Shown here one piece after another: positions 9,188 to 56,389 of a stretch of 64,000 nucleotides of DNA. The translations under genes were made by a program, and so were the position numbers. The stretch spans positions 6,341 through 70,340 of the forward strand of contig JAENZQ010000013.1 in the NCBI GenBank assembly GCA_016841185.1, in the 5' to 3' direction. The first letter of the stretch is position 1. Each line of letters opens with the position of its first letter. The notes under the pieces were generated by a model, which saw only the letters and a program-made list of their open reading frames with translations, was not told the DNA's origin and did no database searches. The stretch comes from Anaerovorax odorimutans (GTDB lineage: Bacteria > Bacillota > Clostridia > Peptostreptococcales > JAAYPU01).

Positions 9188-9261
9188 TATGTCAACAGGG
9201 ACGTATGTCAACAGGGACGGTTCTTTTTGACATATGTCAACAGGGACGGTTCTTTTTGACA
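9188..9261 (+). repeat. Tandem hairpin repeats at the boundary of the transposase remnant
   Basis: TATGTCAACAGGGACG at 9188-9203 is followed by two exact 29-nt copies of TATGTCAACAGGGACGGTTCTTTTTGACA (9204-9232 and 9233-9261). Each copy has an ATGTCAA/TTGACAT inverted repeat. Confidence 0.85.
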
Positions 9262-9310
9262 CAAACACTTCTGTCTGTTATAGTATGTTATCGGATGGAG
9301 GTGTTTTATT

Positions 9311-9738
9311 ATGCCCAGAATCAGTAGAGCAAGAAGCGAAGGAGATATATTCACCAAAACCCAATTAAAGCAGGAATAATAGAGGATATAAAGGATTATA
9401 AATGGAGCAGCTATAACGAATACATAGGAAAGCCTGAAAACAGAATAACGGACACTGATCTATTAGAAATGCTTTCAAAAAACAAAAAAGAAGCAATAAA
9501 AGAGTTCATTGAGTTTCATAAAGAGATTGAAGACGAGACCTATCTGGAAGACAAGGAAGAAGAAAAAGAAAATGAAGAAAAGAAAGCCTGGACCCTTATT
9601 CAAGACAAGATCAGTGAATCAGGATCAGTAAATAAAACAGAGCTTGCAGAATTGATACTAAAGAATACCAAATTATCACACAGGAAAATCGCAGAAATGT
9701 TGGAGATCAACAGAGGGGTAGTGCAAAGGATAGGATAG
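9311..9738 (+). pseudogene. Remnant of an IS200/RAYT-like Y1 (HUH) transposase with an internal out-of-frame deletion
   Basis: MPRISRARSE (ATG 9311) switches frame at about 9343 into RYIHQNPIKAGIIEDIKDYKWSSYNEYIG...KLSHRKIAEMLEINRGVVQRIG. The segment that should carry the HUH motif is missing. The tracked ORF 9469-9738 is only the C-terminal part. Confidence 0.7.
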
Positions 9739-15415: not shown

Positions 15416-15651
15416 TTCTAACAATTAAGATTTAAGAATTATGATTTAAGATATTATGAATGAATTTGCTGCTACAGCAAATTCTTTTTAATAGAATAAT
15501 GTCAGGAAACTATTCATAAGTGATAATTGGACACTTTGCGTTAGCAAAATTCACCATAATTGTCACTCGACTTTTGTATCTTAGAATTATTCAAATGTAG
15601 TAAAGAATATTAAAAGTTTTCTTAAGAGTTACAAGGACGAAAGTTGAGTCG
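15416..15651 (+). repeat. Modular intergenic repeat element (locus L2)
   Basis: ACAATTAAG is followed by TTAAGATTTAAG (15425-15436), the reverse complement of the CTTAAATCTTAA module. Hairpins GAATTTGCTG/CAGCAAATTC and TTTGC gtta GCAAA are present, plus the CACCATAAT word seen at other loci. Confidence 0.4.
15462..15489 (+). terminator. Intrinsic terminator of the xpt/ABC transporter operon
   Basis: Perfect 10-bp stem GAATTTGCTG cta CAGCAAATTC followed by TTTTT. Confidence 0.7.
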
Positions 15652-15855
15652 TTATTTAAATTCTTCTCTGTTTTGGTTTGATAGTTGCTTTTCTGCGGAT
15701 TCTACTAATTTTCTTGTAATCTGCCCCGTATGATAGGACGACATGTATCCCCAATCGATATGCCCGTGTTTTTTCCCCATTATTTCCTCTGCCATTTCCA
15801 TTTTGAATTTATTCAGTGCTTCTCTGGCTTCAGGAACGACCAGTCTTTTTGACAT
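15652..15855 (-). CDS. Alpha/beta-type small acid-soluble spore protein
   Basis: 67 aa. VPEAREALNKFKMEMAEE...GQITRKLVESAEKQL fits the alpha/beta SASP pattern. An AAAGGAGAG RBS is present. Confidence 0.85.
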   Translation of the reverse strand: MSKRLVVPEAREALNKFKMEMAEEIMGKKHGHIDWGYMSSYHTGQITRKLVESAEKQLSNQNREEFK

Positions 15856-19930: not shown

Positions 19931-20006
19931 GACAGGGGCTTGTATTCGGACAGGGGCAAGCCTGCCCCTACAGTTTATACTTACACTCGAACTTGCACTT
20001 ATAAAG
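19931..20006 (+). repeat. GC-rich hairpin repeat module (locus L3) upstream of csoR
   Basis: GACAGGGGC occurs twice (19931-19939 and 19949-19957). GGACAGGGGCAAGCCTGCCCCTAC (19948-19971) is near-identical to 26171-26195 and is followed by the shared word CGAACTT. Confidence 0.5.
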
Positions 20007-23748: not shown

Positions 23749-23790
23749 GCAATTCATAATTTAGAATTAATAATTAAAAATTAATAAAAA

Positions 23791-26099: not shown

Positions 26100-26342
26100 C
26101 AACAATTAGATATTAGAAGATAGATGAAAGATGAGATTATGTTATCTTATTACTGTTTCTAACTTCTTGAGGACAGGGGCAAGCCCTGTCCCTACAACTA
26201 ATACTAAACAACTCCGGACTTCGAACTTAAAAAGGATAATGAATAATGAAAAATTAACGAAAAAATCTGTTTTTGCAATTTTCACCATAAATCATAAAAT
26301 TCAACTTACACGAATTACACGAACTGTAAAAAAGGAGAACTT
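26100..26342 (+). repeat. Modular intergenic repeat element (locus L4) upstream of ruvC
   Basis: Contains hairpin GGACAGGG gcaag CCCTGTCC (26171-26191). CGAACTTAAAAAG (26222-26234) is identical to 41337-41349. AATGAATAATGAA (26238-26250) is identical to 14353-14365. A TTCACCATAAATC word is also present. Confidence 0.5.
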
Positions 26343-27447: not shown

Positions 27448-27613
27448 GACAGTGATTAGAGGTCGGGGGTTTAGAGATCAGAGAATGTAGATTTTTTACA
27501 GCAAAATTACTATAGGATATTTTGTAAGATTAATAATAACCAGAAGTAAAAAATACTCATAGAAAAACTATCGGCACTAATCACTACCTCTAATAAAAAC
27601 AGGAGAGTAACAT
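27448..27613 (+). repeat. Modular intergenic repeat element (locus L5) between ruvA and ruvB
   Basis: Left arm AGTGATTAGAGGT (27451-27463) is complementary to ACCTCTAAT / CTAATCACT in the right arm (27577-27594). A central CAAAAT...ATTTTG hairpin and TTAGAG words shared with L7 are present. Confidence 0.4.
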
Positions 27614-31341: not shown

Positions 31342-31483
31342 ATTAGAAGATAACAGATAAAAGATAATAAATAACTTTGGTTCAGCCAAAATCTTTGATT
31401 AACTAAATTAAATCGAGAGTTTTTAGAATGCTCAAAACTTACCGTAATTATTATCTATTATCCGTTATCTGTTATCTTTTTTT
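31342..31483 (+). repeat. Modular intergenic repeat element (locus L6): long heptamer-built inverted repeat followed by a T-run
   Basis: The left arm is (AGATAAN)x4 at 31348-31375. The right arm at 31444-31477 reverse-complements to AGATAACAGATAACGGATAATAGATAAT. Blocks of 13 and 7 consecutive bases match. Inner hairpins TTTGG/CCAAA and AGTTTT/AAAACT are present. T7 follows at 31477-31483. Confidence 0.6.
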
Positions 31484-33943: not shown

Positions 33944-33992
33944 AATGATAGTCCATCAATGTGAATGATGAATTAAAAAGTCAAATGCTGAT

Positions 33993-34020
33993 TTGACTTA
34001 AGTTTCCAATATGATATAAT
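33993..34020 (+). promoter_or_regulatory. Strong sigma-A promoter candidate for the SCIFF operon
   Basis: TTGACT (33993-33998), a 16-nt spacer, and an extended -10 TGATATAAT (34012-34020). Confidence 0.55.
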
Positions 34021-34054
34021 TTGATTGCATACATATCATACGGAGGAGAACATC

Positions 34055-34198
34055 ATGAAACACATTAAAACACTCTCAAAACTGTCATTAAACACTACTG
34101 AAGGCAAAGGCTGCGGGGAATGTCAGACATCTTGTCAATCGGCTTGTAAGACATCATGCACCGTTGCAAATCAGAAATGTGAAAATAAGAACCAATAA
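34055..34198 (+). CDS. scfA: SCIFF (six-cysteines-in-forty-five) ranthipeptide precursor
   Basis: Not in the ORF track because it is under 60 aa. GGAGGAG RBS. Hand translation gives MKHIKTLSKLSLNTTEGKGCGECQTSCQSACKTSCTVANQKCENKNQ (47 aa, 6 Cys). The radical-SAM/SPASM gene follows. Confidence 0.85.
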   Translation: MKHIKTLSKLSLNTTEGKGCGECQTSCQSACKTSCTVANQKCENKNQ

Positions 34199-34358: not shown

Positions 34359-35717
34359 ATGGTACACAAATACAGATTTAAAGACAAATATATTGCTTTG
34401 GATATAAATAGCGGTGCAGTTCATGTAATTGATAAAATAGTATTTGACATTTTAGATTATTATGATGGTGAAAATAAAGAAAAGGTATTTTCTCATTTAG
34501 ATCATAAATATGCTTTCAATGAGATTTCAGAGGCCATTGAAGAATTGAATGAGTTAAAATCAAAAGGTCTGCTTTTTTCAGAAGATACCTATTATAATCA
34601 ATACATATTTCAAAAGAAACCTGTCGTAAAAGCTCTTTGCCTGCACGTTGCCCATGACTGCAATATGAATTGTAAATATTGTTTCGGTACACAAGGATCG
34701 TTTGAAGGCATCAGAGAATTAATGTCTTTTGAAACAGGTGCGGCTGCAATAGATTTTCTTATGAATAATTCAGGAAACAGAAAAAATCTTGAAATAGATT
34801 TTTTTGGCGGAGAACCTTTAATGAATTTTGAAATAGTAAAAAGAATTGTTTCTTACGGGAGGAAAGTGGAAAAAAAGCTGAACAAAAGGATTCGGTTCAC
34901 CATTACCACAAACGGCATTCTATTAGATGATGAAAAAACGGATTATATTAATGAACACATGGAAAATGTCATTCTCAGTATAGACGGCAGGCCGGAAGTT
35001 AATGATAAAATGAGAAGAACATGGAATGGCGGCGGTACATACAATTTAATAATAGATAATTACAAAAAATTTGTCAAAAAAAGAAAGGATCGGCTGTATT
35101 ATGTTAGAGGAACATTTACTAAAGAAAATCTTGATTTTTCTCAAGACGTTATACATCTGATCAATGAAGGCTTTAAGAGCGTATCTGTAGAGCCGGTTGT
35201 CGTAAAGGAAAACGAAGAATATGCTATTTTGCCGGGGCATTTAGAAAAGATTGTTAATGAATATGAAAAGCTTTCGGATTATCTTATTGAGAATGCAAAG
35301 CATAACAGTAGTATAGATTTTTTTCATTTTAATATTGATCTGGATCAGGGTCCCTGTGTAATAAAAAGAATCTCCGGATGTGGTGCAGGAACAGAGTATA
35401 TGGCAGTCGCACCTAATGGAGATCTGTATCCCTGCCATCAATTTGTAGGGAATACCGATTTTAAAATCGGCAGCGTTTATGATGAATATTATCAGAATCA
35501 TTTATACCATACATTTAATGATGCCCATATTTATAATAAAGAAAAGTGCAGCAGCTGCTGGGCAAAATTCTACTGCAGCGGAGGCTGTCATGCCAATGCT
35601 TATCACATAAACGGAGATATTACACAGCCTTATGAAACAGGCTGTGAGATGGAGAAAAAAAGAATAGAATGTGCCATTGGTATAAAGGCAGTGTTGGATT
35701 TGGAGTATGGAGTATAG
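34359..35717 (+). CDS. scfB: SCIFF radical SAM maturase (SPASM-domain thioether-forming enzyme)
   Basis: 452 aa. Radical SAM CNMNCKYC (CX3CX2C) and C-terminal SPASM cysteines (CGAG...YPC..., CSSCWAKFYCSGGCHANAY). It lies directly downstream of the SCIFF peptide gene. Confidence 0.9.
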   Translation: MVHKYRFKDKYIALDINSGAVHVIDKIVFDILDYYDGENKEKVFSHLDHKYAFNEISEAIEELNELKSKGLLFSEDTYYNQYIFQKKPVVKALCLHVAHDCNMNCKYCFGTQGSFEGIRELMSFETGAAAIDFLMNNSGNRKNLEIDFFGGEPLMNFEIVKRIVSYGRKVEKKLNKRIRFTITTNGILLDDEKTDYINEHMENVILSIDGRPEVNDKMRRTWNGGGTYNLIIDNYKKFVKKRKDRLYYVRGTFTKENLDFSQDVIHLINEGFKSVSVEPVVVKENEEYAILPGHLEKIVNEYEKLSDYLIENAKHNSSIDFFHFNIDLDQGPCVIKRISGCGAGTEYMAVAPNGDLYPCHQFVGNTDFKIGSVYDEYYQNHLYHTFNDAHIYNKEKCSSCWAKFYCSGGCHANAYHINGDITQPYETGCEMEKKRIECAIGIKAVLDLEYGV

Positions 35718-39031: not shown

Positions 39032-39058
39032 AAGACGGGATGTACCCGTCTTCATTTT
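39032..39058 (+). terminator. Intrinsic terminator after apt
   Basis: AAGACGGG atgta CCCGTCTT followed by CATTTTC. Confidence 0.55.
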
Positions 39059-39082: not shown

Positions 39083-41263
39083 ATGACGTTAGAGTATTTT
39101 ATTGATGAGATAATTGAATACAACCAAAATACGGATTTGCTGCTGATAGAAAAAGCATATAATGTTTCTGAAAAAGCACATTCAGGACAATACAGAAAAT
39201 CCGGAGAGGCATATTTCAGCCATCCTGTTGAAGTCGCTAAAATACTGGTTGAATTGGAGATGGATGATGCTACTATAGTTGCGGGGTTACTTCATGATGT
39301 TCTGGAAGATACGGACTATAAGTATGAGCAATTATTAGATGATTTTGGTGAAGAAATCGCGATGCTGGTGGAAGGGGTTACAAAGCTGGGAACTTTGGTT
39401 TATGAGAGCAAAGAAGAACGCCAGGCTGAGAATTTGAGAAAAATGTTTCTTGCTATGTCGAAGGACATTCGTGTTCTTATTATTAAACTTGCAGACCGTC
39501 TTCATAATATGCGTACTATTAACTATATGGACGAAAAGAAGATCCGGGAAAAATGCCAGGAGACCCTTCAGATCTACGCACCTTTGGCGCACCGGCTGGG
39601 AATGTCCAGGATAAAATGGGAGATGGAGGATATTTCGTTTCGATATCTGGAGCCCAATGCATATTATGAGCTTTATGAGAAAGTTAAAAAGAAGCGTAAA
39701 GAAAGAGAAGCATTGATCAATGAAGTAATTAAGGAGCTGAAATCCGAAATAAAGCTTCATGATATTTCTTTTGAAATTACAGGGAGATCTAAACATTTTT
39801 ACAGTATCTATAAAAAGATGAAGTATCAGAACAAAGAATTCGATGAGATTTTTGATTTAATGGCAGTCAGGGTCATCGTAAATTCAATACGTGATTGCTA
39901 TGCCGTATTAGGGATCGTACACACCATGTGGAAGCCCATCCCCGGAAGATTCAAAGATTATATTGCCATGCCAAAGCCCAATATGTATCAGTCGATCCAT
40001 ACGACTGTTATCGGAAAAAATGGAGAACCTTTTGAAATCCAAATAAGAACTGTGGAAATGCATAAAATTTCTGAATATGGGATTGCTGCCCATTGGCGGT
40101 ATAAGGAAGGAAGGAAAACGACGGACGAGTTTGACCATAAATTGGCCTGGCTCAGACAAATGATGGAATGGCAAAGGGATTTGAAAGACCCAAAGGAATT
40201 TATGGAGTCTTTAAAAGTAGATTTGTTTTCCAATCAGGTTTTTGTATTTACGCCTAAGGGAGAAGTTATTGAGCTTCCAACAGGTTCCACCCCTATAGAT
40301 TTTGCTTATAAGATTCATTCGGAAGTTGGCAACCGATGCATTGGCGCAAGGGTCGACGGAAAAATGGTTCCTATTGATTATAAGCTGAGCAATGGAAATA
40401 TCGTAGAAATTATTACTTCCGGTAACAGCAAAGGGCCAAGTATCGACTGGCTTAAAATCGTTAAAAGCACTCAAGCAAAGAATAAAATAAAACAATGGCT
40501 TAAAAAAGAAGATAAAGAAGAAAATATTGATAAAGGGAAAGAAATGCTTGAAAAGTATGTAAGAAGAAAAGGGTATGATACTCAGCAGATTATCAAACCT
40601 CAATGGGTTAATAAGGCAGCAAAGCAGTTCAACCTTAATTCTTCCGATCATCTTTATGCGTCCATTGGCAATGGAAGCATTCTGGTTAATAAGGTGGTTC
40701 CCAAACTTCAGGATTATTACCGTCAAGAGAAACAACAAGAATTGGTACAAAAGGAAAAGTCAGTCATAGCTGAGCCTTCTTATAAACCCAGAAATAATAA
40801 AAATGAGACAAGTGGTATAAAGGTAAAAGGCGGTGCGGATAATCTATTAATAAGAATGTCAAAATGCTGTAACCCTGTACCCGGAGATGAAATTGTAGGC
40901 TTTATTACAAAGGGAAGTGGCCTTTCAATCCATCGCAGGGATTGTATCAACATTGTCAGTGAATACGACAGCATCAAGAACAGACTGATAGATGTAGAAT
41001 GGGATATGGAAAAAGAAGACCTTTCTTATGAAACAGAGATCAATATTTTACTGGAGGACAGAAAGGGATTTCTTGTTGATATTACAAGGATATTTGATGA
41101 TCTGAATTTGACGGTTACCGGAATCAATGCAAAAACCGGAAGAGATAAAATCGCAACTGTCAATTTGACCATAGAAATAACCAATATAGAACAGCTGGAC
41201 AAAGTATTTAATAAGATAAAGAATATTGAAGGGGTTATGGATGTTTACAGAGTGATATCATGA
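39083..41263 (+). CDS. relA: Bifunctional (p)ppGpp synthetase/hydrolase (RelA/SpoT homologue)
   Basis: 726 aa. HD hydrolase motif (HPVEVA...LLHDVLEDT), synthetase domain (RSKHFYSIYKKM), and TGS and ACT domains. Confidence 0.95.
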   Translation: MTLEYFIDEIIEYNQNTDLLLIEKAYNVSEKAHSGQYRKSGEAYFSHPVEVAKILVELEMDDATIVAGLLHDVLEDTDYKYEQLLDDFGEEIAMLVEGVTKLGTLVYESKEERQAENLRKMFLAMSKDIRVLIIKLADRLHNMRTINYMDEKKIREKCQETLQIYAPLAHRLGMSRIKWEMEDISFRYLEPNAYYELYEKVKKKRKEREALINEVIKELKSEIKLHDISFEITGRSKHFYSIYKKMKYQNKEFDEIFDLMAVRVIVNSIRDCYAVLGIVHTMWKPIPGRFKDYIAMPKPNMYQSIHTTVIGKNGEPFEIQIRTVEMHKISEYGIAAHWRYKEGRKTTDEFDHKLAWLRQMMEWQRDLKDPKEFMESLKVDLFSNQVFVFTPKGEVIELPTGSTPIDFAYKIHSEVGNRCIGARVDGKMVPIDYKLSNGNIVEIITSGNSKGPSIDWLKIVKSTQAKNKIKQWLKKEDKEENIDKGKEMLEKYVRRKGYDTQQIIKPQWVNKAAKQFNLNSSDHLYASIGNGSILVNKVVPKLQDYYRQEKQQELVQKEKSVIAEPSYKPRNNKNETSGIKVKGGADNLLIRMSKCCNPVPGDEIVGFITKGSGLSIHRRDCINIVSEYDSIKNRLIDVEWDMEKEDLSYETEINILLEDRKGFLVDITRIFDDLNLTVTGINAKTGRDKIATVNLTIEITNIEQLDKVFNKIKNIEGVMDVYRVIS

Positions 41264-41528
41264 TTTAGGGTTAGAGATGGAGTATATAGAGTATGGAGTA
41301 TGGATTATGGAGTATAAAAAGTTAGAGGTAGAGGTACGAACTTAAAAAGACGGAAAGAATTCAAAGATAAGAGATAAGAGATAAGAGATAAGAGTAAACG
41401 AGGATTTTGTGTTACAAAATCTCCATTTATATATAAAAGATAGAAAATATTGGAATGGCATAGTTTCCGACCAGAACTGTTATCTATTATCTGTTCTCTA
41501 CTAATCTGTTATAAAAAAATGAGAAATT
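41264..41528 (+). repeat. Modular intergenic repeat element (locus L7, the largest copy) between relA and dtd
   Basis: Ordered modules: GGAGTAT-type heptamers, TAGAGG repeats, CGAACTTAAAAAG, (AGATAAG)x4, hairpin GATTTTGT gtt ACAAAATC (41403-41421), then the pyrimidine-rich arm CTGTTATCTATTATCTGTTCT (41477-41497), which is partly complementary to the AGATAAG array. Confidence 0.55.
41365..41394 (+). repeat. Perfect tandem heptamer repeat (AGATAAG)x4 plus AG
   Basis: Counted directly: 41365-41371, 41372-41378, 41379-41385 and 41386-41392. Confidence 0.9.
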
Positions 41529-41540
41529 TTGGAGGGTATT

Positions 41541-41990
41541 ATGCGGGCTGTAGTGCAGAGAGTCAGTGAGGCAGATGTTACTGTTGGGAATGATGTAACA
41601 GGAATAATCAAGTCAGGATTAATGGTATTGATAGGAGTCGAAGAAACGGATACAAAAGCAGATGCTGATTATATGGCTGAAAAAATTGTAAACTTGAGAA
41701 TTTTTGAAGATGAGGCCGGCAAAATGAATTTATCCCTTATGGATATAAAAGGAGAGATTTTAGCTGTTTCGCAGTTTACTTTGTTAGGAGATTGCAGAAA
41801 AGGAAGAAGGCCAAGTTTTATTCAGGCTGCAAGGCCTGAAAAAGCTGTTGATTTATATGATCATTTTGTTGAAAAATGCAGGCAAATGGGTATTAAAGCG
41901 GAAACCGGCGTGTTTCAAGCTGAGATGAAGGTAAGATTATGTAACGAAGGCCCTGTTACAGTGCTTGTAGATAGTAAAAAATTATTTTAA
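41541..41990 (+). CDS. dtd: D-aminoacyl-tRNA deacylase
   Basis: [15 protein letters not shown] start and [27 protein letters not shown] precedes ATG 41541. Confidence 0.9.
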
Positions 41991-42003
41991 AGGAGTATTC
42001 ATA

Positions 42004-42639
42004 ATGATTAAAAAGTTTGTCTTAGGAATGTATCAGGAGAATTGTTATGTTGTATTTTGCAGCAGCACTAAAAAGGGATTTGTTGTAGATCCGGGAATAT
42101 ACAGTCAGGATGTAATAAGTTATATTGAAGAAAAACAATTAAGTATTGAATTTGTTTTACTGACGCATGCCCATGGAGATCATATCTGCGGACTGACAGA
42201 TACAGTTGAAAAGTTTAATGCTCCGGTTTACATACATAAGAAGGAAGCTGAGATATTACAGGATTCTAAAAAGAATTTTTCTGAAGAAATATGCAGGCGG
42301 AAGATAGAAATAGAAGCGGAAAGGCTTCTAAAGGATGGAGAAGTAATACGGATAGGTGAAATGGAAATTAGGATCATTCATACGCCGGGACATACGCCGG
42401 GCGGTATTTGTATATACATTCCTGCTGAAAAAAGTCTAATCAGCGGAGATACTCTTTTTGACAGATCTATAGGCAGAACGGATTTTGGGTATTCTTCTAC
42501 GGAGGCGCTGGTCCAAGCTGTCGGAGAGAAATTGTATGCTTTGCCGGATGATACCGAAGTATATCCCGGGCACGGAACGAATACATCCATAGGCCAGGAA
42601 AAAAAGAGCAATCCGTTTGTGAGAGGAGATTGCAATTAA
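42004..42639 (+). CDS. MBL-fold metallo-hydrolase (glyoxalase II-like)
   Basis: 211 aa with the HxHxDH motif (LLTHAHGDHICG), followed later by HTPGHTPG. Confidence 0.8.
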   Translation: MIKKFVLGMYQENCYVVFCSSTKKGFVVDPGIYSQDVISYIEEKQLSIEFVLLTHAHGDHICGLTDTVEKFNAPVYIHKKEAEILQDSKKNFSEEICRRKIEIEAERLLKDGEVIRIGEMEIRIIHTPGHTPGGICIYIPAEKSLISGDTLFDRSIGRTDFGYSSTEALVQAVGEKLYALPDDTEVYPGHGTNTSIGQEKKSNPFVRGDCN

Positions 42640-42769
42640 TTGACAATTGAAAATTGGAAACTGACAATTAAGGTGGATTTTGTTTAACAAAATCCTGAGA
42701 TTGTTGAAAAATCTACAATCATCTAATAACCATAAATCTTAATCTATTAACTGTATCGGGGGTTTTGTT
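42640..42769 (+). repeat. Modular intergenic repeat element (locus L8)
   Basis: TTGACAA/TTGAAAA heptamer words, then ACAATTAAGG, hairpin GGATTTTG tttaa CAAAATCC (42675-42695), and CCATAAATCTTAATCTATTAACT (42731-42753). Confidence 0.45.
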
Positions 42770-43360
42770 TTGAAGTTTGTTTGTATAGGAGACAGCTTGA
42801 CCTATGGATACAAGGTATCCAGATCTGAGATCTGGACAAAACTGTTTTCTGAAAAATATCAAATAGAAGTATTGAATAAGGGTATTAACGGTGATACTAC
42901 CGCAGGGATGCTTTCAAGGTTTTATCACGATGTTGTAAGCCATGGCCCGACGCATGTTCTTGTCATGGGAGGAACTAACGATTATATAATGGGGGCATCG
43001 CTGAATATGGTGAGATTAAATATATCTACCATGGTCCATCAGGCGTTTGGGTGCAATATTGTCCCTGTTATAGGAATCCAGATATTGACAGATACGGTTA
43101 TGGCAAAAGAACACTGGTCAAATATAACGGATTTTCAGATTGTGAATGATGAAATCGCAAAATACCGCAGATGGGTCTATAAATTTGCAGAGATATTTAA
43201 TGTAAAAATCATTGATTTTTATAAGGATTTTAATACTCAGCTTGAAAAATCCGATAACAGTCCATTATATCTTGACGGACTCCACCCGACTCCGAAAGGA
43301 CATGAAATCATGGCGGAAAGTATTCACCTTTCTACGAGATCAGGGGACAGAGAAAAATGA
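42770..43360 (+). CDS. SGNH/GDSL-family hydrolase
   Basis: 196 aa with block I FVCIGDSLTYGY, GGTNDY, and C-terminal DGLHPT. Confidence 0.75.
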   Translation: MKFVCIGDSLTYGYKVSRSEIWTKLFSEKYQIEVLNKGINGDTTAGMLSRFYHDVVSHGPTHVLVMGGTNDYIMGASLNMVRLNISTMVHQAFGCNIVPVIGIQILTDTVMAKEHWSNITDFQIVNDEIAKYRRWVYKFAEIFNVKIIDFYKDFNTQLEKSDNSPLYLDGLHPTPKGHEIMAESIHLSTRSGDREK

Positions 43361-43501
43361 TTAATAAATAAATCAACTTTTCCACAAATTTGCAGTAGAA
43401 CTGAAAAACTCTTTACCAATCAGAGATTGGAGAGTTTCTGAGTCCAAATCTTAAATCTTAACTTACATTTATACTTTATTTACTATTGTTGGAGGTTAAA
43501 A
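43361..43501 (+). repeat. Modular intergenic repeat element (locus L9)
   Basis: Hairpin AAACTCT tta CCAATC aga GATTGG AGAGTTT, then AAATCTTAAATCTTAACT (43446-43463), identical to 14407-14424. Confidence 0.45.
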
Positions 43502-45004
43502 GTGCTGTATGTTTATATAAATGACAATAGTTTCAGGTATGACGTTGGAGAATTGATAAAAGTATTTATGCCGCCTTCTTCTTTTGAGTTTATAGAAGAA
43601 GACGCTGAGGTCTTGCAGGATGACTTATTACTGACCATTTATTCAGCTTATGGAAATGGTTCGGGAGAAATATCCGTACACCTTACGGAAGAAGGTAGAA
43701 TAACATGTTCTGTTTTAACACCGGAGGTTTTGGAAAACGGTGCCGATGCTTCGAAGAAAGAAATTAAGGATGGTATCAAGCGAGCTGTGTATCATGTATT
43801 CTCCAAGTTTTTTGATTATCGGCCGCCCTGGGGGGTCCTGACCGGTGTCAGACCGACTAAAATGGTTAATGAAATGTCGGAAGCAGGGATGAAGGAGCAG
43901 GAGATTAAAGAAAAATTAAAATATTTTTATTACATTCAGGAGGAAAAAATCAATTTACTCTTGAATGTATGTCAGAACGAAAGAGAAATTTTAAAAAATA
44001 CTTCAGACAGAAAAATAAGTCTGTATATCGGGATACCCTTTTGCCCTACGAAATGTATTTATTGTTCATTCACTTCATATCCTGCGGATATTCTTAAAAT
44101 GGATGCCTACATGGATGCATTGGTTCAGGAAATTGTCTTTGTGGGTAAAGAATTGTCTGAAAGAAATCTAACTATTGAAACCCTTTATATTGGCGGAGGG
44201 ACACCAACGGCATTGTCTGAAGAACAGTTAAACAGATTACTCACACAAGTCAGGACTTCTTTTGATCTAAATGAATTAAAAGAGTATAGCATTGAATGCG
44301 GAAGGCCGGACACCATTACGGAGAAAAAACTTGAAATCATGAAATCCTTCGGCGTCCATAGAATCAGTATAAATCCTCAAACCATGAAACAAGAGACTTT
44401 ATCTAAAATAGGGAGAAAACATTCAACCCGGCAGATTCTTGAAGCGTATGATCTGGCTCGTCGGTATGCTTTTGAGAGTATAAACATGGATTTGATTGCC
44501 GGATTGCCAAATGAAACTCCTGAAGATTTCCGAAGTTCCGTTGACGCTCTGATTCGGCTTGGACCGGAAAACATTACGGTTCACACTCTATCGTTTAAAA
44601 AGGCGTCTAAATTAAAGGAAAAAAGGGAAGAATATACCTATAAATCAGAAGAGCAGGTATCGGATATGCTTAGAATCGCTTCTTCCCTGTTGGACCGAAA
44701 TGGTTATAAGCCGTATTACATGTACCGCCAGAAATATATGTCTGGAAATTTTGAAAACGTAGGTTATTGTAAGAATCACCGACAATGCATTTATAATATA
44801 CGGATAATGGAAGAAAAGCAGACGATTATTGCCCTGGGGGCCGGAGGTATTTCTAAAGTATATTACCCGTCGGAAAACAGATTGGAACGAGTTCCGAACG
44901 TATCGAACTATGAAATTTATATAGAGAGAATTCAGGAAATGAAAGACCGTAAAAGGAATTTGATTTTTGCAAATATTGACAACAAAATCAGTAATACATT
45001 ATAA
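43502..45004 (+). CDS. hemZ: Radical SAM coproporphyrinogen-dehydrogenase-like protein HemZ
   Basis: 500 aa with a GTG start 6 nt after GGAGG. Radical SAM cluster motif CPTKCIYCSF and a HemN/HemZ-like layout. A position upstream of hisS is common in Clostridia, from memory. Confidence 0.8.
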   Translation: MLYVYINDNSFRYDVGELIKVFMPPSSFEFIEEDAEVLQDDLLLTIYSAYGNGSGEISVHLTEEGRITCSVLTPEVLENGADASKKEIKDGIKRAVYHVFSKFFDYRPPWGVLTGVRPTKMVNEMSEAGMKEQEIKEKLKYFYYIQEEKINLLLNVCQNEREILKNTSDRKISLYIGIPFCPTKCIYCSFTSYPADILKMDAYMDALVQEIVFVGKELSERNLTIETLYIGGGTPTALSEEQLNRLLTQVRTSFDLNELKEYSIECGRPDTITEKKLEIMKSFGVHRISINPQTMKQETLSKIGRKHSTRQILEAYDLARRYAFESINMDLIAGLPNETPEDFRSSVDALIRLGPENITVHTLSFKKASKLKEKREEYTYKSEEQVSDMLRIASSLLDRNGYKPYYMYRQKYMSGNFENVGYCKNHRQCIYNIRIMEEKQTIIALGAGGISKVYYPSENRLERVPNVSNYEIYIERIQEMKDRKRNLIFANIDNKISNTL

Positions 45005-45005
45005 T
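44976..45005 (+). promoter_or_regulatory. Consensus sigma-A promoter for hisS-aspS, embedded in the hemZ 3' end
   Basis: TTGACA (44976-44981), an 18-nt spacer, TATAAT (45000-45005). Confidence 0.55.
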
Positions 45006-45067
45006 TAGAAGGTATAAACAAATAATATGGTTATAAATCATAGTAATCCAATTAGGGCGGCACAAAT

Positions 45068-45115
45068 ACTTCTCGTCCCTGACTACGGGATGTAGAAGTT
45101 TTTGTATTTTGTTTT
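45068..45115 (+). terminator. Leader terminator/attenuator upstream of hisS
   Basis: ACTTCT cg TCCC tgactac GGGA tgt AGAAGT followed by TTTTTGTATTTTGTTTT. The upstream AGGG (45054-45057), inside AATTAGGGCGGCAC, could alternatively pair with TCCC. Confidence 0.6.
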
Positions 45116-45117
45116 AT

Positions 45118-45221
45118 AAATTGAGCGAGCTAAGAGCTGTGGAAAAAAGGCAAATTATAAATTTGTGATTTCCTTGCATAAGTTCGCTTGGAATTTGCTT
45201 CACAAATTGAGCGAGCTAAGA
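45118..45221 (+). repeat. Exact 18-nt direct repeat in the hisS leader
   Basis: AAATTGAGCGAGCTAAGA at 45118-45135 and again at 45204-45221. An inverted repeat AATTTGTGA / TCACAAATT (45160-45168 and 45200-45208) overlaps the second copy. Confidence 0.8.
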
Positions 45222-45240
45222 AACAGGAGGTACTGATAAA

Positions 45241-46503
45241 ATGTTGACAAAGGCACCAAGAGGTACAAGAGATATATTGCCGGAACAGATTAATAAGTGG
45301 GTTTATGTTGAGAACAAATTCAGAGATATATGCAGCAGATTTGGTTTTGAAGAAATTCGAACCCCTATGTTTGAACATACCGAATTATTTAAAAGAGGCG
45401 TTGGTGAAACAACAGATGTTGTTGAAAAGCAAATGTATTCCTTTGATGATAACGGAGGAAGAAATATTACTTTAAAAGCGGAAGGGACGGCTCCGGTGGC
45501 CCGGGCGTATGTAGAAAACAAATTATATGCCAATCCTCAACCTGTAAAATTATTTTACATAACACCCTGCTTCAGGTATGAAAGGCCACAGGCAGGCAGG
45601 CTAAGACAATTTCATCAATTTGGAGTTGAAATCTTCGGTACGACTAACCCATTGGCGGATGCAGAGGTTATAGGCGTTGCGGTCAATCTTTTTGATGAAT
45701 TAGGCCTTGAGAACCTTGAGGTCCGTATTAACAGTGTCGGATGCCCAAATTGCAGAGCGGCATATAGAAAAAAATTAAAAGAATATTTAAGAGATAAACT
45801 GGAAATACTTTGCGACACCTGCAAAGGCAGATATGACAGAAATCCCATGAGGATACTGGACTGCAAATCGGAAATCTGTCAAGCAAGTGTAAAAGAGGCA
45901 CCCCGGATGATGGACTATCTGTGCGACTCATGCGTTCAGGATTTTGATGCGCTTAAGAAATATTTGACAGCCATGGAAATAGAATTCATTGTAGATCCTG
46001 ATATTGTAAGAGGCCTGGATTATTATACCAAAACCGCTTTTGAAATAGTTTCCAGTGAAATAGGAGCCCAGGGTACGGTATGCGGCGGCGGAAGATATGA
46101 TCAGTTGGTTGAAGAAATCGGAGGGCCTCCGACTACCGGTGTGGGATTCGGGTTAGGCATTGAAAGACTTTTATTGTCACTTGAAAAAAATGAGACAGTT
46201 ATGGAAGAAATGCACTCTACAGATGTTTTCATTGCGTTTTTAGGTGAAGAGTCTGAGAATATAGCTGTTAAGTTGTTAAAGGATTTAAGATATAAAGGAA
46301 TAAAGGGCCAGATGGATTTAGCAGGAAGAACTCTTAAATCACAATTTAAGAGTGCAGATAGATTAAATGCATTCTTTACAGTTGTTATTGGTGAAGATGA
46401 GTTAAAAGAAAACAGTGTTATGTTAAAGGATATGGAAAGTTCCGAACAAGAAAAAGTAGAAATCAGTAAAGTAATAGAAAAAATTGAAAGCAGACTGAAA
46501 TGA
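45241..46503 (+). CDS. hisS: Histidine--tRNA ligase
   Basis: 420 aa with KAPRGTRDILPE, the class II motifs (FRYERPQAGRLRQFHQ) and GGGRYD. Confidence 0.95.
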   Translation: MLTKAPRGTRDILPEQINKWVYVENKFRDICSRFGFEEIRTPMFEHTELFKRGVGETTDVVEKQMYSFDDNGGRNITLKAEGTAPVARAYVENKLYANPQPVKLFYITPCFRYERPQAGRLRQFHQFGVEIFGTTNPLADAEVIGVAVNLFDELGLENLEVRINSVGCPNCRAAYRKKLKEYLRDKLEILCDTCKGRYDRNPMRILDCKSEICQASVKEAPRMMDYLCDSCVQDFDALKKYLTAMEIEFIVDPDIVRGLDYYTKTAFEIVSSEIGAQGTVCGGGRYDQLVEEIGGPPTTGVGFGLGIERLLLSLEKNETVMEEMHSTDVFIAFLGEESENIAVKLLKDLRYKGIKGQMDLAGRTLKSQFKSADRLNAFFTVVIGEDELKENSVMLKDMESSEQEKVEISKVIEKIESRLK

Positions 46504-48312: not shown

Positions 48313-48490
48313 TAGAGGATAGGGACAAAAAGAGTTTTAAGATCATAGATAATAAATAAAAGATAATAGCTTAGGGAAGATTTTGCCGAAGCAAATCTCA
48401 ATAATTTATAATCTCTAAACGATAAACTATAAGATAAGAATTATTTGCTGAAGGCACTTTATTGAGCGAAGCGTTAAATTTTAAATCTTA
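48313..48490 (+). repeat. Modular intergenic repeat element (locus L11) between aspS and nadD
   Basis: AGATAAT/AAATAAA heptamer words, hairpin AGATTTTGC cgaa GCAAATCT (48378-48398), ATTGAGCGAAGCG (related to the hisS-leader repeat), and AAATTTTAAATCTTA. Confidence 0.4.
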
Positions 48491-48505: not shown

Positions 48506-49114
48506 ATGGTCAAGCGGATAGGTGTAATGGGAGGGACATTTGATCCAATTCATCATGGACATTTGGTCCTTTCGGAACAAGTAAGAACTGAATATAATCT
48601 GGACAAAATTATTTTTGTTCCTGCGGGTATTCCTCCGCACAAAACGGAGCTTTCAATCAGTAAAAATATTCATCGATATTTTATGACCGTGCTGGCTACA
48701 ATCAATAATGAGAATTTTATGGTTTCCGACATAGAAATAGGCTCGGACAAAGTTTCTTATACTCTGAATACATTACATAACTTAAAAAGATTGTACGGGA
48801 AAGAGATTCAGATTTTCTTTAATACAGGAGCAGATGCTATACTGGATATTGAATCATGAAAGGATCCTGATGAGCTTCTGAGAACTTTCAGCTTTATTGC
48901 GGGAACCAGGCCGGGCCATAAAAACAAGGATCTTGAACAGAAAATTATGATTTTAAGGCAAAAGTATAAATCGGAGATGCATTTACTGGAAGTGCCTGCG
49001 TTAGCCATATCCTCTACCGATATACGCAGCAGGGTCAGGGCCGGCCGGTCTATTAAATATTTAGTTCCGGATGCTGTGGAACAGTATATTTTTAAAAACA
49101 AGCTGTATAAATGA
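48506..49114 (+). pseudogene. nadD: Nicotinate-nucleotide adenylyltransferase NadD interrupted by one in-frame TGA at a conserved Trp position
   Basis: N-terminal part has GVMGGTFDPIHHGH (H/TxGH motif). TGA at 48857-48859 sits where NadD homologues have W (..LDIES[W]KDP..). The same frame then stays open for 84 codons to TGA 49112-49114 and contains the conserved ISSTDIRSRV motif. Confidence 0.7.
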
Positions 49115-56259: not shown

Positions 56260-56389
56260 GCGTGAGTGTGAGTGTAAGTGTAGAAAGTAGAAATTATGTA
56301 TTTTATCATAATTTCTGTCCATAATTGGTCATTGCCCATTGTCAATTGTTAAATAAACAGAGTTTTAAATTAGTGGGGGACACTGAAAT
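56260..56389 (+). repeat. Modular intergenic repeat element (locus L12) between efp and mltG
   Basis: Left array GTGAGT GTGAGT GTAAGT GTAGAAA GTAGAAA. Perfect 10-bp hairpin AGAAATTATG / CATAATTTCT (56289-56316). Right CATTG/CAATTG words. Confidence 0.4.

What the first reader, a model, noticed from the sequence alone, without database searches (positions are those of the whole stretch)
41264..41528. A dense family of modular, strand-asymmetric, often heptamer-periodic intergenic elements (at least 12 loci in 64 kb)
Related elements occupy 14358-14485, 15416-15651, 19931-20006, 26100-26342, 27448-27613, 31342-31483, 41264-41528, 42640-42769, 43361-43501, 45005-45240, 48313-48490 and 56260-56389, with heptamer words also at 23749-23790. 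They share several features. (a) A purine-rich left part is built of short tandem words, often with 7-nt (sometimes 6-nt) period and a recurring GAG/TAG/AAG triplet: GGAGTAT, TAGAGG, AGATAAG x4, AGATAAN x4, GTGAGT, ATGNACA. (b) A central hairpin of the type (G)ATTTTG-loop-CAAAAT(C) or AATTTGC-loop-GCAAATT occurs at 41403-41421, 42675-42695, 48378-48398 and 15462-15484. (c) A pyrimidine-rich right part is partly complementary to the left (TTATCT words, CCATAAATCTTAAATCTTAAC). (d) Exact long matches occur between loci: 18 nt (14407/43446), 13 nt (26222/41337), 13 nt (14353/26238) and about 24 nt (19948/26171). Each copy has its own word flavour while arm complementarity is kept, which looks like covariation of an RNA stem or rapid MITE-like divergence. 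Many copies interrupt operons that are contiguous in other Firmicutes (ruvA-ruvB, queA-tgt, relA-dtd, aspS-nadD, permease-permease). All are oriented purine-arm-first relative to transcription. The NAG-triplet periodicity recalls binding arrays of ring-shaped RNA-binding proteins (TRAP, HutP); this is speculation. I do not recognise the family as a described element.
Basis: seen in the sequence. Interest (0 to 1): 0.65.

Follow-up and report, generated by a model that had tools for sequence, protein, structure and literature searches.

The report
Hairpin repeats with phased heptamer arms
The spacers between housekeeping genes of this uncultured Clostridia genome hold a high-copy, apparently undescribed family of small palindromic DNA repeats, each a conserved hairpin flanked by about four 7-base tandem units; it is most likely REP/MITE-like selfish DNA, not a protein-binding RNA array.

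Summary
Spacers show a 7-nt periodicity absent from coding DNA (lag-7 z=6.0). Ten strict period-7 arrays all lie in spacers or at gene ends. The listed loci are not one family.

The true unit is an oriented half element of about 60 nt. It consists of about 4 heptamers (consensus A-R-W-T-A-A-N), a proximal unit AGTTAAG, then GG-NN-GATTTTG-loop-CAAAATC-TNCATT. The arrays are in phase with the proximal unit and resemble it (identity 0.64 in frame, 0.25-0.34 out of frame). The hairpin covaries.

Half elements occur alone or as head-to-head pairs with the arrays outward, like REPINs. Arm complementarity holds in about 5 of 12 loci and shows no sense-strand G-U excess.

The family is absent from relatives with RelA identity of 80% or less. 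It is present in metagenomic Clostridia contigs of 32-55% GC. It stands at about 57-164 times single-copy depth in digester metagenomes.

Best reading: dispersed REPIN/BIME-like palindromic DNA whose arms grow by 7-nt slippage. The TRAP/HutP idea is not supported. The other loci hold a GTAG-tagged REP-like hairpin, a 42-nt palindrome and a T-box remnant.

The parts
41285..41315 (+). Outer heptamer array TATGGAG/TATGGAT x4.4. The same flavour occurs at 35701-35715, at L001 1-100 (about 13 in-phase units plus two TATAGAG units) and at L003 6349-6380.
   Evidence: TRF; blastn; sequences
41365..41399 (+). Left arm: AGATAAG x4 (41365-41392) followed in phase by the degenerate proximal unit AGTAAAC (41393-41399).
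41400..41427 (+). Conserved core: GAG-GATTTTG-TGTTA-CAAAATC-TCCATT (hairpin 41403-41421). It is the centre of covariance-model hit 41378-41436 (67.5 bits).
41425..41512 (-). Weak inverted half element (model hit 41425-41493, 25 bits) with the right arm of TTATCT-type heptamers (41476-41512). This arm pairs with 41372-41395 (24 nt, 83% complementary).
31347..31480 (+). Complete head-to-head element between queA and tgt. Left arm AGATAAC/A/T x4, two inner hairpins, right arm TTATCT x4. Model hits 31354-31414 (+) and 31401-31464 (-).
   Evidence: (z=-6.7)
42638..42713 (+). Solo half element between the MBL hydrolase and GDSL genes: AATTGAC-type x4, AATTAAG, GTG, GATTTTGTTTAACAAAATC.
   Evidence: (48 bits)
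48340..48413 (+). Solo half element between aspS and nadD: AGATAAT-type array, AGCTTAG, GGAA, GATTTTGCCGAAGCAAATC.
   Evidence: 51 bits
14339..14424 (+). Half element between two ABC permease genes. The AATGAAC array starts inside the last codons of the upstream gene and supplies its stop codon. It continues with AATTAAG-G-hairpin and then TAAATCT units (18 nt identical to 43446-43463).
   Evidence: (30.9 bits)
15419..15582 (+). Probable head-to-head element between the permease gene (+) and a SASP gene (-). It has an AATTAAG/ATTTAAG array, hairpin 15459-15487 and a weak inverted half at 15515-15582.
   Evidence: (z=-2.7)
26100..26293 (+). Mosaic upstream of ruvC. It holds a small foldback of AGATGA-type words (26114-26165), the GTAG-tagged REP-like hairpin (26173-26197), and an ATAATGA array with a weak half element (26237-26293).
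   Evidence: (z=-3.0)
27448..27597 (+). Degenerate element between ruvA and ruvB. TAGAG-type words sit on the left, an ATTTTTT..CAAAAT hairpin in the middle, and the complementary CTAATCAC/CCTCTAA on the right.
   Evidence: (z=-1.95)
23751..23787 (+). Array-only locus (AATTAAT x5) after the ispH-S1 gene. It has no core and is followed by a 14+14 perfect palindrome.
35701..35715 (+). Remnant of two TGGAGTA units forming the end of a gene. L001, L002 and L003 carry full elements at this junction, so the window has lost its copy.
43399..43463 (+). Different module: a 42-nt palindromic repeat (43399-43440), 97.6% identical to L002 4013-4054 on the other strand at a non-orthologous spacer. It is followed by AAATCTT units.
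19931..19975 (+). Different family: a GC-rich REP-like hairpin ending in CCCTAC (GTAG on the other strand), also at 26171-26197.
45044..45221 (+). Not a member. It is the hisS leader reduced to the T-box antiterminator/terminator part (45044-45110), plus another dispersed module flanked by an 18-nt direct repeat (45118-45135 / 45204-45221).
56262..56316 (+). Analogous but separate element. GTGAGT x3 and GTAGAAA copies lie directly 5' of the hairpin GTAGAAATTATG...CATAATTTCT. No core match.
9188..9738 (+). Decayed RAYT-type Y1 transposase gene (9313-9738) with three tandem copies of its own flanking hairpin (9188-9261). Its flanking hairpin is not the core of this family, so it is context only and is not shown to mobilise the family.

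Best explanation
The loci are copies, pairs and decayed remnants of a dispersed, non-coding palindromic DNA repeat family. In architecture it resembles REPINs and BIMEs or foldback MITEs.

The basic unit is an oriented half element of about 60 nt. It has about four heptamers (A-R-W-T-A-A-N), the proximal heptamer AGTTAAG, then GG-NN, a 7-9 bp A/T-rich hairpin (GATTTTG..CAAAATC) and TNCATT. Two half elements lie head to head with the arrays outward, giving a long imperfect palindrome. Solo half elements would be remnants of such pairs.

Shown:
- The unit is conserved in sequence at non-orthologous spacers and in distant Clostridia.
- It is high in copy number.
- Copies within one genome resemble each other more than orthologous copies do.
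- Elements are gained, lost, duplicated and nested at fixed junctions.
- The heptamers are phased copies of the 7 nt abutting the core.

Inferred:
- Whole elements, arms included, are copied to new sites or homogenised by conversion. This may involve a hairpin-recognising enzyme such as a Y1 (IS200/RAYT-type) transposase.
- The arms lengthen and shorten in steps of 7 nt by replication slippage next to the hairpin. This is the same process proposed for the general excess of heptanucleotide repeats in prokaryotic spacers.
- The elements are co-transcribed with their operons because they hold no terminator. Any effect on mRNA, such as a double-stranded RNase III substrate or stop codons in all three frames, is secondary.
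For: - **Conserved unit.** An alignment of 14 and then 36 copies gives the consensus AGATAAnAGATAAnAGTTAAGGAnGATTTTG..CAAAATCTnCATT.
- **Hairpin.** 94% of cells are paired and 6 of 8 pairs change on both sides. The closing pair is CG in 15 copies and UA in 14. No shuffle out of 500 reaches these values, and slid controls pair at 41-56%.
- **Phase.** Upstream heptamers match the proximal unit at 0.636 identity in frame 0 and 0.25-0.34 in frames 1-6. The median array is 4 units.
- **Pairs.** All nine adjacent pairs are + then -, with arrays outward.
- **Distribution.** Over 1.49 Mb of RelA-anchored loci, hits at E<=0.1 occur only in the window and L001-L003. A metagenome scan found the core with phased arrays of other flavours in contigs of 32-55% GC, including matched arms AGTGCAG/CTGCACT.
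- **Foreign copy.** A single A/T-rich copy lies in a 55% GC gut Clostridia genome.
- **Copy number.** In four DNA metagenomes the 62-nt half element of L003 has 57-164 times the depth of its flanks, with many different flanks.
- **Concerted evolution.** Paralogues in L002 are 78-92% identical, while L002-window orthologues are 50-78%.
- **Turnover.** The window lost the element at 35717 that L001-L003 keep. L001 lost most of the relA-dtd element. L002 has duplicated halves with a REP-like insert.
- **DNA-level symmetry.** Sense and antisense fold equally well. A-type and B-type hairpin halves occur in either order.
- **No terminators.** No terminator-like site lies in any element.
- **Y1 transposases in the lineage.** A decayed RAYT-type gene lies in the window. 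An apparently C-terminally frameshifted homologue that keeps the HUH and catalytic Tyr motifs lies 1 kb from a family member in L101.
- **Background.** Heptanucleotide repeats are the commonest long simple repeats in prokaryotes and have been ascribed to polymerase slippage (PMC4679880 and PMC4692102, citing Mrazek 2007).
Against: - No transposition event, target-site duplication or clean empty-versus-filled site was seen. Elements at orthologous junctions in the window, L002 and L003 look old and vertically inherited.
- No autonomous parent element or cognate enzyme was identified. The flanks of the RAYT-type gene carry a different hairpin (GTCAA-NAGGGACGGTTC-TTGAC), not the core.
- The core lacks the GTAG or CGTC tag of classical REPs.
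- The typical array length of about 4 units on both sides, and the conserved A1/T4-A5-A6 in each unit, suggest a constraint that pure slippage does not explain.
- The core keeps an SD-like AAGG(A/T)GG. Solo halves tend to be co-oriented with genes (about 9-11 vs 3-5), which could reflect RNA-level selection.
- The family is absent from plasmid, phage and IMG/VR collections, so no vector for spread is known.
Confidence: 0.5

Rival explanations
1. The elements are functional cis-acting RNA modules inside operons. The transcribed arms pair into a long duplex cut by RNase III. Alternatively, the single-stranded purine array followed by a hairpin forms an RNase Y-type site. Either would uncouple the stability or translation of the flanking cistrons. 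The SD-like AAGGAGG and the hairpin would protect the new 5' end, as a STAB-SD does. The three-frame stop arrays would insulate translation.
For: - The elements sit between co-directional genes without terminators.
- Complete elements fold far better than shuffles: z=-6.7 and -6.3.
- The hairpin covaries.
- The core, with its SD-like motif, is conserved across genomes of 32-55% GC.
- 86 of 90 array units carry a stop codon in tandem context.
- Solo halves are mostly co-oriented with genes.
- One 151-nt contig of a metatranscriptome run covers the array plus core at L003 4152-4302.
- There is a precedent. In H. influenzae the hmw (ATCTTTC)n heptamer repeat forms a long 5'-UTR hairpin that RNase III processes (PMC12721329).
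Against: - Sense and antisense strands fold equally well, with no excess of G-U over A-C.
- Half the loci have non-complementary arms.
- Complete elements occur with their two different halves in either order.
- Closely related genomes lose or gain elements at the same junction without visible compensation.
- Orientation cannot be separated from replication direction, because all flanking genes look leading-strand.
- The RNA data are too sparse to show ends.
Confidence: 0.25
2. There is no mobility. Each spacer evolved its own hairpin, a weak terminator or attenuator, and the heptamer arrays arose locally by hairpin-stimulated slippage. The similarity between loci would be convergence in A/T-rich sequence.
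For: - Elements occupy the same junctions in the window, L002 and L003, often with the same heptamer flavour.
- The arrays are phased copies of the local flank.
- 56262-56316 shows the same flank-copying beside an unrelated hairpin.
- Slippage is the published explanation for heptamer repeats (PMC4679880).
Against: - A consensus of about 45 nt, including non-pairing flanks (AGTTAAGG....TNCATT), is shared by non-orthologous loci and by genomes of very different GC.
- Matches of 18 to 42 nt that are identical or nearly so occur at non-orthologous loci, some on opposite strands.
- Paralogues are more alike than orthologues.
- Depth is 57-164 times single copy, with many different flanks.
Confidence: 0.1
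3. The heptamer arrays are binding platforms for an oligomeric or multi-domain RNA-binding protein. Candidates are TRAP- or HutP-like rings, or cold-shock or S1 domains that each bind about 7 nt.
For: - The period is a strict 7 nt with a typical count of about 4-5 units.
- A1 and T4-A5-A6 are conserved within units.
- HutP sites have UAG at 7-nt spacing and CspB binds heptanucleotides (own knowledge).
- Csp, S1 and CsrA were proposed for the TAACTGA repeats (PMC4679880).
Against: - No NAG triplet is conserved. Position 7 is nearly random and the flavours differ widely (AGATAAG, AGTGCAG, ATTTAGG, AATTGAC, TATGGAG).
- The same arrays occur as reverse complements on the transcribed strand.
- No gene for a HutP- or TRAP-like protein was seen. 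The window's proteins were only partly annotated, so this is a weak point.
Confidence: 0.05
4. The pattern is a chance product of A/T-rich, low-complexity spacers.
For: Shuffled spacers already share many 11-12-mers (40.6 and 11.3 diagonals). Several loci fold no better than shuffles.
Against: - Lag-7 autocorrelation gives z=6.0.
- There are 10 period-7 arrays against 0-2 for neighbouring periods.
- Covariance-model E-values go down to 1e-12.
- The phase test separates frame 0 from the others.
- Metagenome depth is far above single copy.
Confidence: 0.02

Closest known systems
REP / REPIN / BIME elements of Proteobacteria (RAYT-associated)
   Same: They are short extragenic imperfect palindromes in high copy number, often inside operons. 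Singlets and inverted doublets form a larger hairpin (REPIN). They combine as mosaics with other small modules (BIME). Sequence is homogenised within a genome. A RAYT-type gene is present in the lineage (PMC3116915, PMC3733652, PMC5581495).
   Different: The core has no GTAG or CGTC tag and is A/T-rich. Each unit carries an arm of phased heptanucleotide repeats, which REPs lack. No cognate RAYT flanked by the repeat was found. The host is a Clostridia lineage, and the text of the GTAG/CGTC survey names no Firmicutes or Clostridia.
Heptanucleotide long simple sequence repeats: cyanobacterial STRR, Xanthomonas GGGAATC, Nostoc GGGGA(C/T)T, Beggiatoaceae TAACTGA, Chloroflexus GATAGRA
   Same: They are intergenic 7-nt tandem arrays of mostly a few units (most often four in Xanthomonas). 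Some occur as inverted pairs able to form stem-loops. They are kept between the same genes in related species with length and sequence variation. TAACTGA also gives stop codons in every frame (PMC4692102, PMC4679880, PMC6749651).
   Different: Here the arrays are not free-standing. They are in phase with a conserved hairpin core, resemble its 7-nt flank, and travel with it as the arms of a palindromic element. Several flavours coexist in one genome. The sequence is A/T-rich, so no G-quadruplex is possible.
Foldback-type MITEs (long terminal inverted repeats built of short tandem repeats, as in Drosophila FB elements; bacterial MITEs such as Correia or ERIC elements that fold in mRNA)
   Same: They have long inverted arms, are small and non-coding, are dispersed in spacers and are co-transcribed. 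A long duplex is expected in the RNA.
   Different: No target-site duplication and no parent insertion sequence were seen. The arms vary in sequence between copies while an internal core is conserved, the reverse of a typical MITE. The resemblance to FB and Correia elements is from my own knowledge and was not tested.
H. influenzae hmw 5'-UTR (ATCTTTC)n hairpin processed by RNase III
   Same: A heptamer repeat forms one arm of a long RNA hairpin. Repeat number changes in steps of 7 (PMC12721329).
   Different: That is a single phase-variable locus upstream of adhesin genes, with a non-repetitive G-rich partner arm. Here the family is dispersed, both arms are repeat arrays, and there is no evidence of phase variation or RNase III cleavage.

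Membership tests
REP/REPIN (RAYT-mobilised) | Short imperfect palindrome, extragenic, high copy number | tested here: met
   The hairpin core has covariation. At least 8 half elements lie in 64 kb, all in spacers. Depth is 57-164 times single copy in metagenomes.
REP/REPIN (RAYT-mobilised) | Conserved GTAG (or CGTC) tetranucleotide at one end of the palindrome | tested here: not met
   The core flanks are AAGG-NN on the 5' side and TNCATT on the 3' side. Only the separate GC-rich module (26173-26197, 19948-19973) ends in CCCTAC, which is GTAG on the other strand.
REP/REPIN (RAYT-mobilised) | Inverted doublets as the repeated unit | tested here: met
   Nine of nine adjacent pairs are + then -, with arrays outward.
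REP/REPIN (RAYT-mobilised) | A single-copy RAYT gene flanked by the same repeats | tested here: inconclusive
   A decayed RAYT-type gene lies at 9313-9738, and a homologue that keeps the HUH and catalytic Tyr motifs is P0011 in L101. Their upstream flank holds a different hairpin, and the downstream flank of L101 is cut off by the contig end.
MITE | Terminal inverted repeats | tested here: met
   The arms of 31336-31374/31451-31489 span 39 nt at 79% complementarity, and those of 41372-41395/41476-41499 span 24 nt at 83%. Arm flavours match in L085, L095 and L002.
MITE | Target-site duplication flanking each copy | tested here: inconclusive
   No direct repeat was recognisable outside the arrays. 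The boundaries are blurred by the arrays themselves and by divergence from genomes with empty sites.
MITE | Autonomous parent element with the same ends | not tested
   Only 64 kb of this genome and fragments of relatives were available. No transposase with such ends was seen among the window proteins scanned; about a third of the window's proteins were not scanned.
Heptanucleotide LSSR / STRR | Tandem 7-nt units, intergenic, in excess over other periods | tested here: met
TRAP / HutP-type protein-binding arrays | Conserved GAG/UAG triplets at fixed spacing | tested here: not met
   Position frequencies are A1 0.98, T4 0.73, A5 0.87 and A6 0.87. At position 7, G is only 0.36. Many flavours have no NAG.
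Intrinsic terminators | G+C-rich stem followed by a T run | tested here: not met
   No terminator-like site lies in any element, while ordinary ones are found at 39032 and 34234.
Any Rfam family | Covariance-model match | tested here: not met
   There were 0 hits at gathering score over the whole window. Only chance-level hits appeared at E<=5 over 41200-45300.

The most novel reading that the evidence does not exclude
The half element is a conserved, functional nucleic-acid signal of Clostridia and not junk. A host or element-encoded machine would recognise the AAGG-hairpin-CATT core and measure DNA or RNA in 7-nt steps. The candidates are a Y1/HUH enzyme acting on single-stranded DNA or a ribonuclease/ribosome complex acting on the transcript. 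Either would generate and maintain about four phased heptamers on each side. If so, this family would give the first concrete mechanism and test system for the long-noted, unexplained excess of heptanucleotide repeats in prokaryotic spacers. It would also define a new class of operon-internal element.
Probability: 0.2. Interest if true: 0.75.

Novelty: new variant of a known kind. Interest (0 to 1): 0.55.

Why it matters
Small palindromic repeats (REP, BIME, REPIN, MITE) and heptanucleotide tandem repeats are both long known. In the papers read here they were not linked to each other, and I found no description of either in Clostridia. Here the two are physically and phase-locked. The heptamers are copies of the 7 nt next to a conserved hairpin and form the arms of a REPIN-like palindrome.

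That offers a concrete handle on why 7 is the favoured repeat length in bacterial spacers. The choice is between slippage beside a hairpin and a measuring enzyme.

The family also shows that abundant anaerobic-digester Clostridia carry tens to hundreds of such elements inside core operons such as ruv, queA-tgt, relA-dtd and aspS-nadD. There they must be transcribed and may shape mRNA processing.

On the practical side, the elements break metagenome assemblies and inflate spacers. Annotators could mistake them for regulatory RNAs.

Tried and rejected
- **Rfam.** Nothing was found at gathering score or at a permissive threshold. There are no tRNA or tmRNA genes.
- **Sequencing runs for the window.** None were listed.
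- **Exact-protein look-ups to find the window's own contig.** They failed for the MBL hydrolase and EF-P.
- **RNA runs for the relative L003.** Only sparse assembled contigs were available, with no read ends, so processing could not be judged.
- **Plasmid, phage and IMG/VR searches for the core.** There were no true matches.
- **Small ORF after the SD-like motif.** Rejected, because loop length varies from 2 to 7 nt and no frame or peptide is conserved (read).
- **attC-like site.** Rejected. GTTAAGG/CCTTAAC resemble the integron core sites, but they lie in the opposite order (own knowledge of attC; sequence).
- **7-bp target-site duplications as the source of the arrays.** Rejected, because the two sides are inverted and not direct repeats.
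- **parS half-site in the loop (TGTTTCAC).** Rejected, because the loops vary.
- **Orientation relative to transcription as a discriminator.** Abandoned. All flanking genes have leading-strand skew. Once nearly symmetric copies are set aside, the solo counts (about 9-11 vs 3-5) are not decisive.
- **Link between the RAYT remnant and the heptamer family.** Not established.
Full report
**Setting.** The window is low-GC (about 36%) Clostridia DNA. Nearly all genes lie on the + strand and GC skew is strongly positive. The closest public relatives by RelA are uncultured MAGs: L001 at 95% amino-acid identity, L002 at 88%, L003 at 85% and L004 at 80%. Named genera such as Anaerosolibacter are at 65% or less.

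The finding's coordinates are simply the gaps between mechanical ORFs.

- TRF finds period-7 arrays at almost every listed locus, including a perfect (AGATAAG)4.3 at 41365-41394.
- Over all 30 spacers (6.9 kb), identity at lag 7, 14 and 21 exceeds dinucleotide shuffles by z=6.0, 5.2 and 4.2. Coding DNA shows only period 3.
- A strict scan gives 10 period-7 arrays against 0-2 for periods 5, 6, 8 and 9, all in spacers or at gene ends.
- The hairpins and the exact inter-locus matches exist. Word sharing between spacers is 2-4 times that of shuffles.
- Arm complementarity is only partly true. It is strong at queA|tgt (z=-6.7). It is moderate for 41360-41505, 15416-15565 and 26100-26235 and weak at 27448-27597. 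It is absent at 14336, 42636, 48335, 43361, 56257 and 26225, and for the full named interval 41264-41528, which gives z=+0.17.

**What the unit really is.** Orthologous spacers of L002 and L003 carry the same kinds of modules. Comparing them exposed a conserved sequence at many different junctions. It consists of a heptamer array, then AGTTRAG, GG-NN, a hairpin GATTTTG-loop(2-7)-CAAAATC, and TNCATT (alignment A1).

A covariance model built from 14 copies finds further copies in the window:
- 41378-41436 (+) at 67 bits.
- 48353-48413 (+) at 51 bits.
- 42651-42713 (+) at 48 bits.
- 14352-14418 (+) at 31 bits.
- 31354-31414 (+) at 22 bits and 31401-31464 (-) at 25 bits.
- 41425-41493 (-) at 25 bits.
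- Weakly, 26237 and 15515.

In an alignment of 36 copies the hairpin is 94% paired, and 6 of 8 pairs show changes on both sides. The closing pair is C-G in 15 copies and U-A in 14. No shuffle and no slid control comes near these values. That alignment is model-fitted, so it leans towards the structure.

The heptamers are not arbitrary words. Read in register with the proximal unit, the four upstream units are 64% identical to it. In the other six registers identity is 25-34%. The unit consensus is A(0.98)-R-W-T(0.73)-A(0.87)-A(0.87)-N. The median array has 4 units. 86 of 90 units contain a stop codon in tandem context.

The so-called flavours (AGATAAG, AATGAAT, ATTTAAG, AATTGAC, AGTGCAG) are one to three substitutions from AGTTAAG. 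They recur at several loci and in several genomes.

**Architecture.** Half elements are oriented units, with AAGG on the 5' side and CATT on the 3' side. In all nine cases where two are adjacent they lie + then -, with the arrays outward. This produces a long imperfect palindrome whose arms are heptamer arrays. The arrangement is that of a REPIN, an inverted doublet of REPs (PMC3116915).

The two halves often carry different hairpins: type A is GATTTTG and type B is AGTTTTGC. These occur in either order relative to the genes. Solo halves are more often the upstream-facing half, about 9-11 against 3-5. The count is small. All flanking genes have leading-strand skew, so transcription and replication cannot be told apart.

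**Anatomy of the named locus 41264-41528.**
- An outer TATGGAG-type array lies at 41285-41315. Its flavour also ends the gene at 35717 and forms an array of about 13 in-phase units plus two TATAGAG units in L001.
- TAGAGG x2 lies at 41323-41334.
- A 13-mer shared with 26222 follows.
- The left arm is (AGATAAG)4 plus AGTAAAC at 41365-41399.
- The core GAG-GATTTTG-TGTTA-CAAAATC-TCCATT lies at 41400-41427.
- A spacer with a weak second hairpin follows.
- The right arm of TTATCT-type units lies at 41476-41512.
- The dtd ribosome-binding site follows.

At the same junction L002 has a larger, duplicated version with a REP-like insert. L003 has a compact version whose hairpin carries a compensatory T-A to A-T change. 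L001 retains only the outermost few bases of each arm. Relatives at 70% or less have 12-31 nt with no element.

**Distribution and copy number.**
- Over 1.49 Mb of RelA-anchored loci from 80 species, the model gives hits at E<=0.1 only in the window and L001-L003. The two hits elsewhere (L031, L043) are at chance level, E=0.14 and 0.34.
- An exact-pattern scan of JGI metagenomes found 20 contigs. Most show the same design with other flavours in genomes of 32-55% GC. One example has matched AGTGCAG/CTGCACT arms. Another has pyrimidine heptamers (CACTAAC) just before the next gene's ribosome-binding site.
- One copy sits as a 31% GC island in a 55% GC human-gut Clostridia genome, as the only copy in 17 kb.
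- In four DNA metagenomes that hold the L003 organism, the 62-nt half element has 57-164 times the depth of its single-copy flanks, and the matching contigs carry many different flanks.
- Within L002, type-A copies at different junctions are 78-92% identical. Orthologous L002-window pairs are 50-78% identical.
- Nothing similar is in the plasmid, phage or IMG/VR collections.

**DNA or RNA?**
- The elements contain no terminator-like site and lie inside operons, so they must be transcribed. One metatranscriptome contig covers an array plus core. The available RNA data are assembled contigs and too sparse to show processing.
- A test for RNA-level selection compares sense with antisense folding and G-U with A-C mismatches. 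It shows no asymmetry: 58 vs 46 G-U pairs, with the sense strand more stable in 10 of 15 elements.
- Half of the loci have arms that no longer pair.
- Close relatives gain and lose elements freely.
- Complete elements occur in both orders of their two halves.
- Together these points fit a DNA-level palindromic repeat better than a selected RNA stem.
- The conserved SD-like AAGG(A/T)GG, the near-universal stop codons in the arrays and the regular arm length of about 4 units remain unexplained. They keep an RNA or measuring-enzyme reading alive.

**Mechanism proposed.**
- Shown: a conserved, oriented hairpin unit; phased heptamer arms derived from its flank; inverted doublets; high copy number; within-genome homogenisation; turnover at fixed junctions; occurrence in distant Clostridia.
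- Inferred: whole elements spread or are homogenised as DNA. A hairpin-recognising single-strand enzyme may be involved. Their arms expand and contract in 7-nt steps by slippage beside the hairpin, the process proposed for heptanucleotide repeats in general (Mrazek 2007, as cited in PMC4679880 and PMC4692102).
- A candidate enzyme class exists in the lineage. The window holds a decayed RAYT-type Y1 transposase at 9313-9738. NCBIfam's REP-associated tyrosine transposase model matches it at E=2.8e-5, over the last 24 profile positions only. Its homologues carry PF01797 and some are named RayT.
- A homologue that keeps the HUH and catalytic Tyr motifs, though it appears frameshifted at its C-terminal end, lies next to ssrA in L101, 1 kb from a family member.
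- The flanks of these genes carry a different hairpin, so the link is not established.

**What else is in the list.**
- 19931-19975 and 26171-26197 are a GC-rich hairpin ending in CCCTAC, that is a GTAG-tagged REP-like repeat. L002 has it in the other orientation inside its relA|dtd element.
- 43399-43440 is a 42-nt palindromic module. It is 97.6% identical to a copy on the other strand at a non-orthologous L002 spacer and is also in L096.
- 45044-45110 is what remains of the hisS T-box leader, which is complete in L004 and L006. It is followed by another dispersed module bounded by an 18-nt direct repeat.
- 56262-56316 shows hexamer and heptamer copies of the flank of an unrelated hairpin.

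These spacers are therefore mosaics of several small repeat families, as in BIMEs.

**Comparison with the known.** The nearest kinds are:
- REP/REPIN/BIME, with the same architecture and genomic habit but no GTAG/CGTC tag, no cognate RAYT shown and no heptamer arms.
- Heptanucleotide long simple repeats: STRR, Xanthomonas GGGAATC with mostly four units and occasional inverted pairs, Beggiatoaceae TAACTGA with stops in all frames, and Chloroflexus GATAGRA. These are free-standing arrays without a conserved core.
- The H. influenzae hmw heptamer hairpin cut by RNase III, which is a single phase-variable locus.

I found no description of this composite in the searched literature, and Rfam has no model for it. 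The TRAP/HutP reading fails its defining feature.

**Verdict.** This is a real, abundant and apparently undescribed repeat family, and a new variant of known kinds. The phase-lock between a hairpin core and heptamer arrays is the most interesting point and is directly testable.

Noticed in passing
window 9188-9738: A decayed RAYT-type (IS200-like Y1) transposase gene. The N-terminal codons MPRISRARSEG are fused out of frame to the C-terminal part (..YIHQNPIKAGI..DYKWSSYNEY.. plus a helix-turn-helix tail). It is preceded by three tandem copies of a hairpin, ATATGTCAA-CAGGGACGGTTCTTT-TTGACATAT. A homologue that keeps the HUH and catalytic Tyr motifs (P0011, 80% identical over the shared part, apparently frameshifted at its C-terminal end) lies beside the tmRNA gene in L101.
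   Followed up: yes
window 26173-26197 and 19931-19975; L002 12272-12300: A GC-rich REP-like hairpin, GGACAGGGGCAAGCCCTGTCC followed by CTAC (GTAG on the other strand). It is a second, separate repeat family. The text of the published GTAG/CGTC survey read here names no Firmicutes or Clostridia.
   Followed up: partly
window 43399-43440; L002 4013-4054; L096 48-87: A 42-nt palindromic module, AACTGAAAAACTCTTTACCAATCAGAGATTGGAGAGTTTCTG. It is 97.6% identical between the window and L002, although the two copies lie in non-orthologous spacers on opposite strands. That is far above the similarity of neighbouring genes, which points to recent spread.
   Followed up: partly
window 44976-45110: The hisS leader keeps only the T-box antiterminator/terminator segment, behind a perfect TTGACA-18-TATAAT promoter at the end of hemZ. 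L004 and L006 have a full leader of about 250 nt. Rfam does not detect the remnant even at E<=5.
   Followed up: partly
window 48857-48859: nadD has an in-frame TGA where L002 has TGG (Trp), in ..DILDIES*KDPDELL.. against ..DILDIESWKDSKTLL... The reading frame continues intact to 49070. This may be a nonsense mutation, a sequencing error or read-through in a normally essential gene.
   Followed up: partly
window 42770-43360: The GDSL-type esterase gene is present only in the window, L002 and L003, where repeat elements flank it on both sides. L004-L006 have the MBL hydrolase gene directly followed by hemZ. The gene looks like an insertion bounded by elements.
   Followed up: no
window 14339-14357 and 35701-35717: Heptamer arrays extend into the 3' ends of two genes and supply their last codons and stop codons. 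The elements therefore remodel protein C-termini.
   Followed up: partly
L002 19508-19760 (aspS|nadD spacer): About six tandem copies of a unit of about 37 nt (ACTACTCCGAAGGAGTCCACTCAAACTTAACACTTAAAT), each with its own small hairpin, directly after a half element. This is a larger-period expansion at the same kind of site.
   Followed up: no
L004 12180-12600 and about 5000-5200: The next relative out (RelA 80%) lacks the heptamer family. It has two copies of a different repeat of about 300 nt in the corresponding spacers, so each lineage seems to carry its own spacer repeats.
   Followed up: no
window 15652-15855 (-) and 33990-34180 (+): Two small genes lie in the 'spacers'. One is an alpha/beta-type small acid-soluble spore protein on the minus strand. 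The other is a SCIFF-type six-cysteine peptide upstream of its radical-SAM maturase.
   Followed up: no
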